This document shows positions 55,164 to 62,987 of a DNA stretch of 64,000 nucleotides, in pieces. Both the position numbers and the translations under genes were made by a program. The DNA is from a virus: positions 80,419-144,418 of IMG/VR virus record IMGVR_UViG_3300030107_008258; one strand, given 5' to 3'. The notes beneath the pieces were generated by a model. The model worked only from the letters and a program-made list of their open reading frames with translations, was not told where the DNA came from and did no database searches. Position 1 is the stretch's first letter. Every line of letters starts with the position of its first letter.

Positions 55164-55183
55164 TCTTTCATCCTCATAACACA

Positions 55184-55227
55184 GCCCCGTCGAGTTCTCT
55201 CTCTGCTCGGCGGGGCATTTTTCTTTT
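55184..55227 (+). terminator. Terminator after the hydrolase gene
   Basis: GCCCCGTCGAG-11 nt-CTCGGCGGGGC + T tract. Confidence 0.75.
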
Positions 55228-55272
55228 TGTCAAGTGAAAAAGATAAAAAAAAGTTTTTTAAAAAATAAAGTC

Positions 55273-55351
55273 GTAAGTGACTGATATTCAATGACTTACG
55301 GCAGCGGCGCCCTGCGCCCAAATCGTAAGTAACTGATATTCAATGACTTAT
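55273..55351 (+). repeat. Twin-palindrome element, copy 3
   Basis: Palindromes at 55273 and 55325. Confidence 0.95.
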
Positions 55352-55488
55352 GAACTCGTTTTTCTAAAAACTAAGACTTTTAAAAGGGATTCCATGCCAA
55401 GTAGTGTAAAAAATAAAAATAAAAAAAATAAAAAAGTGAGTTTTTTCTGTTGACTTTTCCCGGAAAGTGTGGTTTAATAATTTCTGTT

Positions 55489-55758
55489 ATGAGGGATATG
55501 TTTGATAATATGTACGAGGTTCGGATCGCCAACTCTGGCGATGTTGCTGGTTTCCCGCGTTCTCACGATGGTCTTGAAAAGGCCATCATGTTGGCCTCGC
55601 GTGAGGGTACTGAGGTCACCTTTGATGGTGATGTCGTCTGGCCGGAGGAGGAGCCGGATATGGATGAGTCCATGGACGGGGATCATGAGTCCGCCTTGGC
55701 CAGTGCCGGTTTCGGCACGGATGAGGATTACGGCTGCTACGGTGGCGATGAGTGGTAA
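55489..55758 (+). CDS. Early very acidic protein (SMDGDHESALASAGFGTDEDYG)
   Basis: TTGACT-17-TTTAAT + GTTATGAG. Confidence 0.75.
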   Translation: MRDMFDNMYEVRIANSGDVAGFPRSHDGLEKAIMLASREGTEVTFDGDVVWPEEEPDMDESMDGDHESALASAGFGTDEDYGCYGGDEW

Positions 55759-55814
55759 AAAACTCATTTTTTTTGTTGACTTTTAAATCTGATTGTTTTA
55801 TACTGTTTTTTGTT

Positions 55815-56009
55815 ATGGGAATTATGAAATCACTATTCATGGAACTCTCCTGCGAGGAGGAGTTTGAACTCAACGCGTGGTGCGACGAACGCCGTGAGGC
55901 CGACATCGCCGCGCAGGATCGCGACATGGTCGACGAGGAAATGGCCCGTCAGTCCGACGCGCAACTCGCCGAGGACGCCGCGTTGGATCTGTTGATCGCC
56001 GCCGGTTAA
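55815..56009 (+). CDS. Early small protein, CEE-FE family
   Basis: TTGACT-17-TATACT + GTTATG; LSCEEEFELNA. Confidence 0.75.
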   Translation: MGIMKSLFMELSCEEEFELNAWCDERREADIAAQDRDMVDEEMARQSDAQLAEDAALDLLIAAG

Positions 56010-56079
56010 TCACGAACCGTGCCAACCAACCCCGCCAAGGCGGGGTTTTTTTGTTTTTAGTTTTTTAAAAAGTGAAGTC

Positions 56080-56158
56080 GTAAGTCGTTGGGTAGCAATG
56101 ACTTAAGGGCCGGGCGGGGGGCGCCGACCCCTTAACTTGTTGATTATCAATGACTTAG
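56080..56158 (-). repeat. Twin-palindrome element, copy 4 (core inverted)
   Basis: Palindromes at 56080 and 56132. Confidence 0.95.
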
Positions 56159-56234
56159 GAATACAAAAAATAATTTAAAAAAGTGAGATTTAAAGGTTGA
56201 CATTTTCTGATTCTGTGGTATGCTCATTTCTGTT

Positions 56235-56402
56235 ATGAGAGATAATGTTACTTGTGAAGAGGTGTTCGAGATGGAGTCCGACGCATGGGTCGCTGATGTG
56301 ACCGTCGCCAACGGTTTCGACGATGTCGAGGTCGAGGAGGTCGAGGAGGTTTGCTGGTGCAAGTTTTTCGAGTCGTGCCCTGAATGTTTTGGCAAAAAAT
56401 AA
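56235..56402 (+). CDS. Early small protein, CEE-FE family, with C-terminal CxC/CxxC
   Basis: TTGACA-16-TATGCT + GTTATGAG; VTCEEVFEM. Confidence 0.7.
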   Translation: MRDNVTCEEVFEMESDAWVADVTVANGFDDVEVEEVEEVCWCKFFESCPECFGKK

Positions 56403-56406
56403 AAAC

Positions 56407-56485
56407 GTAAGTCTTTGCGCTGCAGTGACTTAGGGCTCGGGCAGGGGGCGCCGCGTGCGTAAGTGACTGGTAATCAAAGGGTTAC
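56407..56485 (-). repeat. Twin-palindrome element, copy 5 (core inverted)
   Basis: Palindromes at 56407 and 56459. Confidence 0.92.
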
Positions 56486-60601: not shown

Positions 60602-60680
60602 CTAAGTGACTGACTATCAACGACTTACGGCCGCGGCGGGGGGCGCCGAGGCGCTAAGTCACTGGTATTCAATGACTTAG
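60602..60680 (-). repeat. Twin-palindrome element, copy 7 (core inverted)
   Basis: Palindromes at 60602 and 60654. Confidence 0.95.
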
Positions 60681-60693
60681 GCCATGGATTTTT

Positions 60694-60888
60694 TCAAAAA
60701 ACTGAGTGTTCGCTTTCCTCGTACCCCGCCTCCCGCAAAAGTTGCGGGATAAGATTAACTTGGTTGGGGTTATCACAAACCAACCCGCTAGAGTTATTTA
60801 AATCTTTACGCCATGCAATCAAGTAACGAGTTGACGTATAACCATCACGCTTTTTAATGTCGTGAACTGTTACGCTATATTTTTTCAT
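60694..60888 (-). CDS. Hypothetical protein
   Basis: ATGA overlap with the upstream gene. Confidence 0.55.
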   Translation of the reverse strand: MKKYSVTVHDIKKRDGYTSTRYLIAWRKDLNNSSGLVCDNPNQVNLIPQLLREAGYEESEHSVF

Positions 60889-61067
60889 TCTTTTTCTTTA
60901 TTTCCATATTGGAGCTTTCGTTTTTTCCATCCGACTTGAATTCCCCTCTTCTTTGCCCATTTTTCGTAGGCGTTGTCGAATTCTTTTTTCATTCCCACGG
61001 CGACATTGTATGCCTCGTCGAAGGAGTCCGCTTGTTGTGTGTGTGTATTATTATTTCCTTGAATCAT
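60885..61067 (-). CDS. Hypothetical protein
   Basis: Overlapping operon arrangement. Confidence 0.55.
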   Translation of the reverse strand: MIQGNNNTHTQQADSFDEAYNVAVGMKKEFDNAYEKWAKKRGIQVGWKKRKLQYGNKEKE

Positions 61068-61473
61068 AATCGGTCAAGTTCTCTGCTGTAATTCGGCCCA
61101 AGTCATAAAAATCATATTTATTCTTTGTGGCCAAAAATCTCATTGGTTTGAATTCTGTAAATTTGAGGTCGGCCCACTCCCTAGCGTAAGGCATGACCCC
61201 ACCCTTCTTCCCCTTAAATAATGATAAGTTTCCCTCATTAAAGATTGCGTTAAGTGACAAGCTAACTAATGCTTTTTTTAATCTCGTTTGGCTTGTCCAA
61301 AAATATCCCAAGTAAGGTTTGACGCTATCGTTCGCCCATAATATGTTGCCGCTTGATGTGGCGGCATGATTCCAAAATCCCCAGTAGTGATGGGTGATTT
61401 CGTCCTTGTCATCACCTCTTATGCCTACGGCTACTTTTTTCTCTCCCTCTTGCTGTATAACATATTCAATCAT
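61051..61473 (-). CDS. Hypothetical protein
   Basis: 140-aa ORF in the same operon. Confidence 0.6.
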   Translation of the reverse strand: MIEYVIQQEGEKKVAVGIRGDDKDEITHHYWGFWNHAATSSGNILWANDSVKPYLGYFWTSQTRLKKALVSLSLNAIFNEGNLSLFKGKKGGVMPYAREWADLKFTEFKPMRFLATKNKYDFYDLGRITAENLTDYDSRK

Positions 61474-61545
61474 TTTTTATTTTTTTGGTCTAATATGATT
61501 CCAATAAGGATTCCCACCAGAATCAAAACGAGTGTTTCCACGGGC

Positions 61546-62280
61546 CTACATCTTAACAGTTGCGTTATACCCAGTAAAGCCTTTTTTCTTGTTTGCCATG
61601 AGAGCTTTGCTGGCTTCGCTCCCTGCTGGCTGGCTCCCGTGAATCACCAAAGCGAAATCATCCGAGCCAGAGATGGCCAAGTCATCGGTGTGGTCAATAT
61701 CCAAGCCGAGGGCTTCGGCTTCTTCTGTTGAAAAGAAAACCTTTGCAGTCTTGGTTTTTGACTTCGGGATTAACTTATCATACTTTCCACCACGGGAACA
61801 AGTGAAAACAAAATTGTCAGGCAAATCTTCCCCGACTAAAAAATTGATGCTTTTAGTATAGGAATAAAAAGTAATCTGCGGAAAAAACTTTGCAGCTATC
61901 ATCCACGCTCTGAAATAAGCCCGTGAAAAGTAATCGCCGCCGATATGCACCCGCAACGTACCGCCACGCCGTAGGCCAGAGGATTTGATACTTCTGATAA
62001 TCAAAGCAGCCATTGCCTTTGTTGTCTTGCAAGCCTTTAACAAGTCGAAATTGTGCCAGCGTGTTGCCCTAACATTAGGCCGTCTGGCTTCGTCCATCGC
62101 TGCGTAACAACGAAAGATAACACCGTCAACGGCTTTCTGTGCGTCCATGATCTTGCCTGTGATCTTGTCGGCAAAAGTCTTACAACTTTCAGCACCGGGG
62201 CAGGTGTGGCCGCTAGGAAGGGAGAAGTGCCAAATACCTTTTAGCTTGGCGTTTTCAAATGTGAATCGTAGTAAACTCAT
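61546..62280 (-). CDS. Gp88-like protein
   Basis: FSLPSGHTCPGA..C, CYA, LRVHIGGDYFS..Y..AW, FYSYTKS; promoter TTGACT-17-TACTAT + GTTATGAG. Confidence 0.8.
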   Translation of the reverse strand: MSLLRFTFENAKLKGIWHFSLPSGHTCPGAESCKTFADKITGKIMDAQKAVDGVIFRCYAAMDEARRPNVRATRWHNFDLLKACKTTKAMAALIIRSIKSSGLRRGGTLRVHIGGDYFSRAYFRAWMIAAKFFPQITFYSYTKSINFLVGEDLPDNFVFTCSRGGKYDKLIPKSKTKTAKVFFSTEEAEALGLDIDHTDDLAISGSDDFALVIHGSQPAGSEASKALMANKKKGFTGYNATVKM

Positions 62281-62335
62281 AACGTGAGAAGATAGTACCC
62301 TGTTCGGTGGTTCAAGTCAATCATAAAAATTTTTT

Positions 62336-62575
62336 TTATGAAAAAAGTTTGTCCCATCCCGCCGGACTAGTTCCAGAAATTAAAAATTCCCTATCCTCCA
62401 TACTTAATGATTTAAAAGCATGAATATTATCAGAGTTGCGAAAATCCCATAACTCTGACCCTTTAACGGTGACGCTGTAGGTTTCCCCTGTGACTAAACA
62501 CGCCCCACTAAACGTGTAAGTATGCTCTGGCTCATAACTCTCCGTATACTTTAGTCTGTCGATAGCTCTTTCCAT
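62336..62575 (-). CDS. Early hypothetical protein (L...DREFLISG..P..WD.LF motif)
   Basis: TTGACA-17-TATAAT + GTTATG. Confidence 0.7.
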   Translation of the reverse strand: MERAIDRLKYTESYEPEHTYTFSGACLVTGETYSVTVKGSELWDFRNSDNIHAFKSLSMEDREFLISGTSPAGWDKLFS

Positions 62576-62655
62576 AACGCCGTTAATTATAATATGATAA
62601 ATAAGGCTTGTCAACCCCTTAAATCATAAAAATATCTTTTTTTAAAACTTGACAC

Positions 62656-62734
62656 CTAAGTCGTTGAGTATCAATGACTTACGGCGGGCGCGGGGGTCGC
62701 CGCGGCCCTAAGTGCTTGGTAATCAGTGACTTAC
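62656..62734 (-). repeat. Twin-palindrome element, copy 8 (core inverted)
   Basis: Palindromes at 62656 and 62708. Confidence 0.95.
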
Positions 62735-62922
62735 GTCTTTAAATTTAATTTTATCTTTTTTTATATAGTATTATTATCCCCCTTTATTTGTTATTTATTT
62801 ATTTGAGATTCATTATTTCGCCTATATATATTTCGCCTTCTATTATTTGTATTTGATTATTTAGCAATCCTTATTTCGCATTTATTTATTACTCTTTATT
62901 TGGCAATTTAAAAATTTGCCGA

Positions 62923-62950
62923 CAAAAAAACCCCACTCTTTCGAGTGGGG
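62923..62950 (-). terminator. Intrinsic terminator
   Basis: Minus strand CCCCACTC-GAAA-GAGTGGGG-TTTTTTT. Confidence 0.85.
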
Positions 62951-62987
62951 TTCGTAGTGTTATGAGGACTACTACTGAGGGGGGATT

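What the first reader, a model, noticed from the sequence alone, without database searches (positions are those of the whole stretch)
55171..62968. Three non-coding CUCAUAACAC boxes antisense to the shared start of the early genes
SEEN: 14 early genes begin GTTATGAG. The reverse complement occurs, in the transcribed direction, in three untranslated places: TCCTCATAACAC (55171-55182, +) between the hydrolase stop and its terminator; TCTCTCATAACAC (57489-57501, -) between two hairpins in the large ncRNA; TCCTCATAACAC (62957-62968, -) between the 62988 stop and its terminator. All three share the extra AC beyond the complementary part and none has a promoter on the opposite strand. The ncRNA copy is an 11-nt perfect match to six GTTATGAGAGA starts; the other two match the GTTATGAGG starts. 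INFERENCE: 3'-UTR-derived or ncRNA guides could pair with the extreme 5' end and start codon of many near-leaderless mRNAs and switch the whole early regulon off (or sequester it) with one seed. This would also explain why codon 2 is fixed as AGN, which translation alone does not require.
Basis: partly seen in the sequence, partly recalled or inferred. Interest (0 to 1): 0.86.

Follow-up and report, generated by a model that had tools for sequence, protein, structure and literature searches.

The report
Anti-start boxes before phage terminators
A group of uncultured marine phages starts its early genes with the eight letters GUUAUGAG and places the exact mirror, CUCAUAAC (also the anticodon loop of the start-codon tRNA), as an exposed RNA box just before some early-gene terminators, which suggests, without proof, that the box covers those start sites.

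Summary
The three CTCATAACAC boxes lie at the stated coordinates. There are 3 in the window against 0.06 expected, and they are the only three in the 144-kb genome. Fourteen early genes start GTTATGAG about 7 nt after a sigma-70-type -10 box.

Relatives make the case stronger. Across 85 distinct terminators in the early regions of this phage clade, CTCATAAC is the most enriched 8-mer in the 25 nt upstream (13 against 0.71 expected). It always lies on the transcribed strand, 2-6 nt before the stem, in front of at least seven unrelated hairpins, and is mostly predicted unpaired.

A new point: the box is identical to positions 32-39 of initiator tRNA-fMet (checked on E. coli metZ). The start octamer is therefore a full complement of the initiator anticodon loop. 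This explains the fixed AG at codon 2 without needing a regulatory RNA.

My best reading (about 40%) is that the box, carried on stable 3' fragments and on one ~800-nt ncRNA, pairs with the 5' end and AUG of early mRNAs and competes with initiator tRNA. Whether it acts in cis or in trans is unresolved. I found no covariation, and there are no expression data.

The scan earlier noted an analogous case in an actinobacterial phage (e1-5821729).

The parts
55171..55182 (+). Box 1, TCCTCATAACAC, in the 3'UTR of the Hydrolase_2 operon
   Evidence: Homologous box before the same terminator in L004, L005 and L014; variant ATCATAAC in L011. P(unpaired) 0.96.
55184..55222 (+). Intrinsic terminator after box 1 (GCCCCGTCGAG...CTCGGCGGGGC, then a T run)
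57489..57501 (-). Box 2, TCTCTCATAACAC, single-stranded after the hairpin GTCCCGCAAAGGGAC inside the ncRNA
   Evidence: Conserved in L011 and L062, with one compensatory change in the hairpin. The module is absent from the L004 and L005 versions of the ncRNA.
56930..57731 (-). About 800-nt promoter-driven non-coding RNA that carries box 2. Promoter TTGCAT-17-TATACT at 57765-57737, 5' hairpin TTCCCTTCGGGGAA, 3' domain similar to manA RNA.
   Evidence: (RF01745: 49.7 bits, gathering score 55.2, E 7e-11, at 56932-57118)
62957..62968 (-). Box 3, TCCTCATAACAC, in the 3'UTR of the RuvB-like plus 61-aa operon, part of the conserved element AGTAGTCCTCATAAC
   Evidence: Conserved in L061, L062, L064, L067, L070, L075 and L069, down to 61% protein identity.
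62928..62953 (-). Intrinsic terminator after box 3 (AACCCCACTC GAAA GAGTGGGGTT, then a T run)
50567..50574 (-). Early start GTTATGAG (GAGAGA type), 7 nt after the -10 box
50814..50821 (-). Early start GTTATGAG
51019..51026 (-). Early start GTTATGAG (GAGG type)
51294..51301 (-). Early start GTTATGAG (GAGG type)
51722..51729 (+). Early start GTTATGAG (GAGAGA type)
51911..51918 (+). Early start GTTATGAG (GAGAGA type)
53430..53437 (+). Early start GTTATGAG (GAGAGA type)
53856..53863 (+). Early start GTTATGAG (GAGG type)
54185..54192 (+). Early start GTTATGAG (GAGG type), upstream promoter of the operon that ends at box 1
54401..54408 (+). Early start GTTATGAG (GAGAGA type), the promoter nearest upstream of box 1
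55486..55493 (+). Early start GTTATGAG (GAGG type), the first start downstream of box 1
56232..56239 (+). Early start GTTATGAG (GAGAGA type)
58648..58655 (-). Early start GTTATGAG (GAGG type) of the L5 gp82-like gene, upstream of the ncRNA
62276..62283 (-). Early start GTTATGAGTTTACTAC of the GP88-family gene, the best predicted partner of the box 3 element in the window (-17.4 kcal/mol)

Best explanation
CUCAUAAC is a conserved, exposed RNA box. This phage clade places it 2-6 nt in front of some intrinsic terminators of early operons, and once inside a promoter-driven ~800-nt non-coding RNA.

The box is the exact complement of GUUAUGAG. That octamer forms the extreme 5' end, the start codon and the first two bases of codon 2 of most early, nearly leaderless mRNAs. 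The box is also letter for letter the anticodon loop (positions 32-38) plus C39 of initiator tRNA-fMet.

Most likely logic: the early mRNAs lack a Shine-Dalgarno leader, and their start octamer has evolved to pair as fully as possible with the initiator anticodon loop. The box is an RNA look-alike of that loop and can occupy the same site on the mRNA. It would be carried on nuclease-resistant 3' pieces (box plus terminator hairpin) and on the ncRNA. From there it pairs with the 5' end and AUG of early mRNAs (8-11 bp, -8 to -20 kcal/mol predicted) and competes with fMet-tRNA and the ribosome. That would damp or shut off early translation as these RNAs build up, and might also shield the 5' end from decay.

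Shown here: the sequences, their complementarity, their conservation, their strand- and position-specific enrichment before terminators, and their predicted accessibility.

Inferred: the transcription start sites, accumulation of 3' fragments, pairing in the cell, and the direction of the effect.
For: - Enrichment: CTCATAAC is the top 8-mer within 25 nt upstream of 85 distinct terminators, 13 against 0.71 expected. The reverse complement occurs 0 times upstream and the box once downstream. Spacing to the stem is 2-6 nt.
- Independence: at least seven unrelated hairpin families carry the box. Before the box 1 terminator, the upstream flanks differ between WIN, L004/L005, L011 and L014 while box and terminator stay.
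- Conservation: the box 3 element AGUAGUCCUCAUAAC is kept down to 61% protein identity. L070 keeps it even though it has lost the upstream 61-aa ORF.
- Accessibility: P(unpaired) is at least 0.8 in 15 of 20 contexts. In three contexts the box sits in a 9-nt loop closed by different stems.
- Flank: the base 5' of the box is a pyrimidine in about 17 of 20 contexts, matching the purine at +6 of the starts. Complementarity stops at the G that is the predicted mRNA 5' end.
- Start logo over 172 promoter-linked starts: more than 1 bit only at -3 to +5.
- Box 2 lies in a transcript with its own promoter and a different 5' end.
- In L004 a hairpin-box-terminator unit sits behind another terminator, like a stand-alone small RNA.
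- Co-occurrence: distant relatives without the start motif also lack the box. Unrelated phages show only background coding hits.
- One homologous box reads UUCAUAAC, which still pairs through G.U.
- tRNA identity: E. coli metZ reads ...gggCTCATAACccg....
Against: - The host is unknown and there is no cultured relative.
- I found no covariation. The start core is invariant wherever the box occurs.
- The second start class GTGAGTGAGAGA has no matching box.
- Only about 15% of early terminators carry a box, so few boxes would face many mRNAs.
- Several relatives with the start motif show no box in the 6-12 kb fetched (L009, L010, L012, L024).
- One recurrent variant, AUCAUAAC, loses the terminal pair.
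- The frequent AC after the box is unexplained.
- The first 8 nt of the early mRNAs are only moderately open (mean P(unpaired) 0.57).
Confidence: 0.4

Rival explanations
1. Fold-back in cis. The box pairs with the 5' end of its own transcript, closing the mRNA into a panhandle next to the terminator hairpin. This would protect the unstructured, leaderless 5' end from 5'-end-dependent decay, or hold the finished mRNA translationally silent, as in the fold-back inhibition of hok mRNA.
For: - Nearly every early promoter gives a GUUAUG(A) 5' end, so any box-bearing early mRNA can close on itself.
- In the RuvB-like operon the 3' element also matches codons 2-4 of its own first gene: 7 bp plus 7-9 bp, -15 to -19.6 kcal/mol. 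That start ranks first or second of 14-17 starts in three relatives.
- The tight 2-6 nt spacing to the terminator would allow the two helices to stack.
Against: - Own-operon starts pair no better than the pool of 129 starts (percentiles 0.02-0.92).
- The cross-matrix of seven RuvB-like operons shows no preference for the cognate partner; L075 pairs worse with its own box.
- Box 2 lies in an ncRNA whose 5' end is a hairpin, not GUUAUGAG.
- In L015-L017 the nearest promoter gives a different 5' end.
- In L004 the nearest start is GUUAUGAA.
Confidence: 0.15
2. Anticodon-loop decoy. The box works because it looks like the initiator (or elongator) tRNA-Met anticodon loop. It would bind or distract something that recognises that loop, such as an anticodon-loop nuclease of a host defence system, MetRS, or the ribosomal P site. 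It would not act through the mRNA starts.
For: - The 8-nt identity with tRNA-fMet positions 32-39.
- Display in hairpin loops in WIN box 3, L006/L007 and L014, with three different stems.
Against: - Most boxes are in linear single-stranded linkers.
- The loops are 9 nt rather than 7, and the stems are A-U rich, without the three G:C pairs of initiator tRNA.
- Position '31' is a pyrimidine, which fits pairing with +6 of the mRNA rather than with C39.
- The box occurs only in phages that also have the complementary start.
- A few copies could hardly compete with cellular tRNA.
Confidence: 0.1
3. No function of its own. The boxes are by-products of cassette shuffling in a hyperplastic early region. 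They would be short inverted copies of the ubiquitous promoter/start linker that hitch-hike with terminator-palindrome-promoter boundary modules, in the manner of PeSL cassettes of T4-type phages.
For: - Box plus terminator travel together while the sequence just upstream is swapped between relatives.
- Boxes are gained and lost between close relatives; the 59353 terminator of the window lacks the box that L004 has at the homologous place.
- The early region is clearly mosaic.
- Scan note e1-5733776 reports cassette swapping at these modules.
Against: - Simple inversion or deletion between start motifs leaves every copy next to a promoter. It cannot place a reversed copy on the 5' side of a terminator.
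- The association recurs with at least seven unrelated hairpins, always in one orientation and at 2-6 nt.
- The box 3 element is better conserved than the neighbouring coding sequence, down to 61% protein identity.
Confidence: 0.15
4. Double-stranded DNA site. GTTATGAG is bound by a phage or host protein at +1 to +8 of early promoters, as a repressor or initiation factor. The reversed copies before terminators would be extra sites, for example roadblocks that help termination.
For: - The same 8 bp occurs at both kinds of place.
- Conservation of the octamer at a fixed distance from -10 could reflect promoter function.
Against: - A single asymmetric 8-bp site is short for a sequence-specific DNA binder.
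- The octamer contains the start codon and its boundary coincides with the predicted RNA 5' end.
- The reversed copies are strictly strand- and position-specific relative to the terminator RNA hairpin, with 0 copies in the other orientation.
- The pyrimidine flank follows RNA-pairing logic.
Confidence: 0.08

Closest known systems
3'UTR-derived regulatory small RNAs of enterobacteria (CpxQ, SroC, DapZ type; from my own knowledge)
   Same: A short conserved single-stranded seed lies in an mRNA 3'UTR and shares the mRNA's intrinsic terminator and U tail. The predicted targets are translation start regions.
   Different: Here the seed sits only 2-6 nt from the hairpin. The target is the extreme 5' end of leaderless-type mRNAs, and it is one invariant octamer shared by 14-20 phage genes. 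No processing, chaperone or effect has been shown.
c4 antisense RNA of phages P1 and P7 (from my own knowledge; also named in scan note e1-5821729)
   Same: A phage-encoded RNA made from the same transcription units as its targets covers translation start regions by short complementarity.
   Different: c4 is one dedicated processed RNA that acts on one operon (icd-ant) at a Shine-Dalgarno region. Here several dispersed boxes face a whole class of leaderless-type starts.
Fold-back inhibition (fbi/tac) of hok mRNA of plasmid R1 (from my own knowledge)
   Same: The 3' end of an mRNA is complementary to its own 5' end. This would give a closed, stable, translationally silent molecule.
   Different: The hok pairing is specific to one mRNA and is relieved by 3' trimming. 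Here the complementarity is generic, and the tests for operon-specific pairing failed.
Extended codon-anticodon pairing at initiation (Esposito et al. 2003 as cited in PMC9841429; Hollerer and Jeschek 2023, PMC10018350)
   Same: U at -1 pairs with A37 of tRNA-fMet and raises translation. A at +4 has been proposed to pair with U33.
   Different: The known effect is a fourth base pair. Here about 100 natural starts complement all seven loop bases plus C39, on mRNAs with a 3-nt leader. In addition, a copy of the loop sequence itself is encoded in 3'UTRs.
Earlier finding of this scan, e1-5821729 (hairpin RNA mirroring the shared 5' tag of about 40 genes of an actinobacterial phage)
   Same: A phage starts a gene class with one shared tag and encodes the exact mirror in a non-coding RNA.
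   Different: It concerns another phage lineage and another sequence: one hairpin in a tRNA operon rather than boxes before terminators. That report is itself unverified.
PeSL (promoter-early stem-loop) cassettes of T4-type phages (Arbiol et al. 2010, as named in scan note e1-5733776; not read here)
   Same: Small early-gene cassettes are bounded by conserved terminator and promoter modules that shuffle between relatives.
   Different: PeSL modules are not described as carrying a box complementary to the gene starts.

Membership tests
3'UTR-derived regulatory sRNA | Lies in an mRNA 3'UTR and ends at that mRNA's intrinsic terminator | tested here: met
   Boxes 1 and 3 lie between the stop codon and the terminator. 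13 of 85 terminators in the clade carry the box.
3'UTR-derived regulatory sRNA | Conserved, single-stranded seed | tested here: met
   The 8-mer is invariant across at least seven hairpin families. P(unpaired) is at least 0.8 in 15 of 20 contexts.
3'UTR-derived regulatory sRNA | Seed complementary to target translation start regions | tested here: met
   8-11 bp with 14 early 5' ends, -10 to -20 kcal/mol
3'UTR-derived regulatory sRNA | Accumulates as a discrete small RNA (by processing or from an internal promoter) | not testable with these tools
No promoter-like site lies just upstream of boxes 1 or 3.
3'UTR-derived regulatory sRNA | Changes expression of the targets; depends on Hfq or ProQ | not testable with these tools
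   Needs experiments. The host is unknown.
mRNA 5'-3' fold-back (hok fbi type) | The 3' element is specifically complementary to the 5' end of its own mRNA | tested here: not met
   Only the generic 7-9 nt core pairs. There is no own-operon preference and no cognate preference in seven RuvB-like operons.
Initiator tRNA anticodon stem-loop mimic | Loop sequence CUCAUAA followed by C39 | tested here: met
   Identical to E. coli metZ positions 32-39
Initiator tRNA anticodon stem-loop mimic | 7-nt loop closed by a stem with three consecutive G:C pairs | tested here: not met
   Most boxes are in linear linkers. Where the box is in a hairpin, the loop is 9 nt and the stem is A-U rich.
Extended codon-anticodon start context | Bases flanking AUG complement the anticodon loop (U-1:A37, U-2:A38, A+4:U33, G+5:C32) | tested here: met
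   Of 172 promoter-linked starts: U at -1 in 134, U at -2 in 135, A at +4 in 151, G at +5 in 138
Extended codon-anticodon start context | The flanking pairs raise initiation | not testable with these tools
   Shown only for -1 in E. coli (PMC10018350); proposed for +4 (PMC9841429).
Any curated Rfam family | Match at the gathering score over a box | tested here: not met
   Only tRNA-Cys reaches the gathering score in the window. Near box 1 there is only a chance-level sX13 hit, E 2.8.

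The most novel reading that the evidence does not exclude
These phages run a private initiation code. Their nearly leaderless early mRNAs recruit initiator tRNA through pairing with the whole anticodon loop (7-8 nt instead of 3). 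The phage also encodes RNA copies of that loop, stabilised by terminators or embedded in a large ncRNA. These copies act as competitive inhibitors of initiator-tRNA binding at exactly those starts. The result would be a switch that turns off the phage's own early class without touching host mRNAs.
Probability: 0.2. Interest if true: 0.88.

Novelty: new variant of a known kind. Interest (0 to 1): 0.7.

Why it matters
If the pairing is real, one 8-nt RNA box controls a whole temporal class of phage genes at the level of the mRNA 5' end. That would be a simple early shut-off device for leaderless-type messages, for which no regulator of this kind is described.

The identity with the initiator anticodon loop bears on an old question: how far bases around AUG pair with tRNA-fMet. 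This clade offers about 100 natural starts that complement the full loop, plus a built-in competitor, so the idea becomes testable with reporters and toeprinting.

The clade is common in marine metagenomes. The neighbouring RuvB-like protein has 398 homologues at E <= 1e-20, some from Tara samples.

Tried and rejected
- **Chance:** rejected by the counts and by the unbiased 8-mer enrichment before terminators.
- **Relic or real opposite-strand starts:** no promoter is present, and the opposite-strand ORFs of 5, 6, 31 and 41 codons are not conserved.
- **Buried in structure:** not the case.
- **Pairing specific to the own operon:** no signal. The cognate against non-cognate matrix for seven RuvB-like operons shows no cognate preference.
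- **Pairing with the next downstream start, or 8-12-bp terminal inverted repeats around the boundary module:** median percentile 0.67, no signal.
- **Anti-box for the second start class GTGAGTGAG:** none found.
- **Analogous anti-start boxes in distant relatives (L018-L021, L025):** none seen.
- **Identity of phage and host:** no blastn match. TerL is only 24-28% identical to SPbeta-like and Clostridioides phages. There is no prophage in the GTDB representative genomes.
- **RNA-binding chaperone among early proteins:** none found by Pfam.
- **14-mer scan of viral contigs:** it gave 104 hits, but these could not be analysed because the script machine was lost. I draw nothing from it.
- **Literature:** two searches found no description of such boxes.

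Full report
**What the window is.** The window is the last 64 kb of a 144,418-bp IMG/VR phage record with 39% G+C. It has no nucleotide match among deposited phages. Its large terminase is only 24-28% identical to those of cultured phages, and no prophage copy turned up in the GTDB representative genomes. The host is therefore unknown. Positions 50-64 kb form an early region of small genes. Each has a near-consensus sigma-70-type promoter with an A-rich upstream stretch, and many intrinsic terminators separate them.

**Checking the observation.** GTTATGAG occurs 21 times in the window against 1.85 expected. These are all the copies in the genome, and 20 lie between 50.5 and 63.8 kb. Fourteen follow TTGACx-16/17-TAnnnT by about 7 nt. 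The predicted transcript therefore begins at or next to the G and has a 3-nt leader. About five more early promoters carry GTTATG or GTTGTG without the AG.

The reverse complement with its AC tail, CTCATAACAC, occurs three times against 0.06 expected, and nowhere else in the genome. I verified all three coordinates base by base.
- Box 1 lies between the stop of a Hydrolase_2 gene and its terminator.
- Box 3 lies between the stop of a 61-codon ORF, which follows a RuvB-like gene, and its terminator.
- Box 2 lies in an 820-nt stretch without credible ORFs.

None of the three has a promoter at the right distance on the other strand.

**Relatives.** Searching viral contigs with the hydrolase and the RuvB-like protein gave 26 loci of related phages. 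They use the same promoter-GTTATGAG arrangement, up to 11 copies per 12 kb.

In these relatives, promoter-less reversed copies of the octamer keep turning up in one context. On the transcribed strand the order is CTCATAAC, then 2-6 nt, then a G+C-rich hairpin, then a T run.

I then made an unbiased count on 85 distinct strong terminators from 19 loci. CTCATAAC is the most enriched 8-mer in the 25 nt upstream of the stem, 13 against 0.71 expected. That background is already inflated by the reverse strands of the many starts. The reverse complement never occurs upstream, and the box occurs once downstream.

The hairpins belong to at least seven unrelated sequence families, so this is not one duplicated module. 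At the terminator homologous to that of box 1, the sequence upstream of the box differs among the window, L004/L005, L011 and L014, while box and hairpin persist. L011 has the variant ATCATAAC.

I also fetched seven further loci through homologues of the RuvB-like protein. The box 3 element AGTAGTCCTCATAAC, with its terminator, is kept:
- down to 61% protein identity (L069);
- in L075 (72% identity);
- in L070, which has lost the 61-codon ORF in between.

It is absent in L071-L074 (61-63% identity), where the RuvB-like gene does not start with GTTATG.

More distant relatives without the start motif also lack the box. Unrelated phages that share only the hydrolase show background coding hits.

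**Structure.** I folded each box with 45 nt upstream and its terminator. The box has a mean unpaired probability of at least 0.8 in 15 of 20 contexts. It sits either in a free linker or, in three contexts, in a 9-nt hairpin loop closed by different stems: GUAGU/ACUAC, GCAAC/GUUGC and CUGUUA/UAACAG.

Box 2 follows a hairpin that shows one compensatory change in L011. The surrounding RNA has its own conserved promoter, followed at once by the hairpin TTCCCTTCGGGGAA. This confirms scan note e1-5913328. Its 3' domain resembles manA RNA: RF01745, 49.7 bits against a gathering score of 55.2, E 7e-11. The module that carries box 2 is present in the window, L011 and L062, but missing from the L004 and L005 versions.

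CUCAUAAC is the anticodon loop of initiator tRNA (C32 to A38) plus C39. E. coli metZ reads gggCTCATAACccg, and by textbook knowledge this arm is nearly universal in bacteria.

The logo of 172 promoter-linked starts shows more than 1 bit of information only at -3 to +5. It drops to 0.04 bit at -4 and to about 0.65 at +6 to +8. The conserved core is therefore exactly the complement of positions 32-39.

Pairing of U(-1) with A37 has been shown to raise translation in E. coli (PMC10018350, which also cites Esposito et al. 2003). Pairing of A(+4) with U33 has been proposed (PMC9841429). Matching the four flanking loop positions by chance has odds of about 1 in 256.

This gives a translational reason for the fixed AG at codon 2 that needs no regulatory RNA. 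It also means that any anti-start box must look like the initiator anticodon loop.

**Which mechanism.** Several details favour pairing of the box with the mRNA start over mere tRNA mimicry:
- The base 5' of the box is a pyrimidine in about 17 of 20 contexts. That matches the purine at +6 of the starts. A loop-closing pair with C39 would need a G there.
- Complementarity ends at the predicted mRNA 5' end.
- The hairpin displays are not tRNA-like: 9-nt loops and A-U stems.
- One homologous box has changed to UUCAUAAC, which still pairs through G.U.

Predicted duplexes are -8.0 kcal/mol for the core alone and -10 to -20 kcal/mol with flanks.

I tested two cis models.
- Own 5' end: the starts of the box-bearing operon pair no better than a pool of 129 starts.
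- Next downstream start on the same strand: also no preference, with a median percentile of 0.67.

The box 3 element does match codons 2-4 of the RuvB-like gene and the start of the GP88-family gene. These rank first and second of 14-17 starts in two relatives, and the GP88-family start ranks first in the window. However, a cross-matrix of seven operons shows no cognate preference. The match rests on ACU/CUA repeats that are also codons, so I do not count it as covariation.

The box is thus a generic complement of the start core. Three further points make me lean to action in trans, without excluding fold-back:
- Box 2 lies on an independent ncRNA.
- In L004 a hairpin-box-terminator unit sits behind another terminator.
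- Box-plus-terminator modules are kept while the upstream genes are swapped.

**Weaknesses.**
- Nothing shows that these RNAs exist or act.
- Only about 15% of early terminators carry a box, and boxes come and go between close relatives.
- The second early start class in relatives (GTGAGTGAGAGA, a GUG start) has no mirror.
- The 5' ends are only moderately open.
- The early region is mosaic, and a neutral hitch-hiking origin cannot be excluded. Simple recombination between start motifs would not, however, place a reversed copy on the 5' side of a terminator.

**Verdict.** Its argument from codon 2 is superseded by the tRNA complementarity.

I class it as a new variant of known kinds: 3'UTR-derived or antisense control of start sites, and extended codon-anticodon pairing. 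Interest is 0.7. The scan has noted an analogous arrangement in an actinobacterial phage (e1-5821729), which I did not re-test.

Noticed in passing
window 56932-57118 (-), within 56930-57731: The 3' domain of the ~800-nt promoter-driven ncRNA matches Rfam manA RNA (RF01745) over its full length at 49.7 bits, just under the gathering score of 55.2 (E 7e-11). This domain is conserved in L004, L005 and L011, whereas the middle modules are swapped in and out as whole hairpins.
   Followed up: partly
L009, L015, L016, L017, L023 (for example L016:5780, 6632, 6929): Relatives have a second class of early starts, GTGAGTGAGAGAAA, at the same distance from the -10 box. It appears to be a GUG start followed by the same AGAGA. 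A GUG start on a nearly leaderless mRNA is unexpected. This class has no mirror box.
   Followed up: partly
window 55270-55350, 56080-56160, 56410-56480, 62655-62735: Twin-palindrome elements (CGTAAGTCACTGAT...TGACTTACG twice, around a G+C core) lie between the terminators and the next promoter. The same elements occur in all relatives fetched. Other readers of this scan noted them as IHF-like sites.
   Followed up: no
L004:10290-10400: Two terminators in tandem. The second is preceded by a small hairpin (GAGAC...GUCUC) and a free CUCAUAAC box, so it looks like a self-contained ~75-nt RNA. At the homologous place in the window (59300-59385) a different hairpin replaces the box.
   Followed up: partly
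window 60694-64000 (-) and L067, L069, L070, L071: Conserved gene order: RuvB-like AAA+ protein, (61-aa ORF), small ORF, GP88-family protein, two small ORFs, then a convergent DUF932 gene. The RuvB-like protein has 398 homologues at E <= 1e-20 in metagenomes, some from Tara samples, so the clade is widespread in the sea.
   Followed up: partly
window 63171-63179 (-): The internal 61-aa gene, which has no promoter of its own, also starts UGUAUGAGAAAU. The AUGAGA context is therefore favoured even away from 5' ends.
   Followed up: no
window 2864-11026 (-) and 23055-31301 (-): Two giant ORFs of 2720 and 2748 aa carry Laminin_G_3 and Peptidase_S74 (endosialidase chaperone) domains. A 1555-aa tail-fibre-like ORF lies nearby. 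They are probably very large fibre or adhesin proteins.
   Followed up: no
window 62974-62983 (-) and 62951-62944 (-): Upstream of box 3 a run CCCCCCUC resembles the 5' arm (CCCCACUC) of the terminator, so both could pair with the 3' arm GAGUGGGG. L069 has a similar C-rich run. Its meaning is unknown.
   Followed up: no
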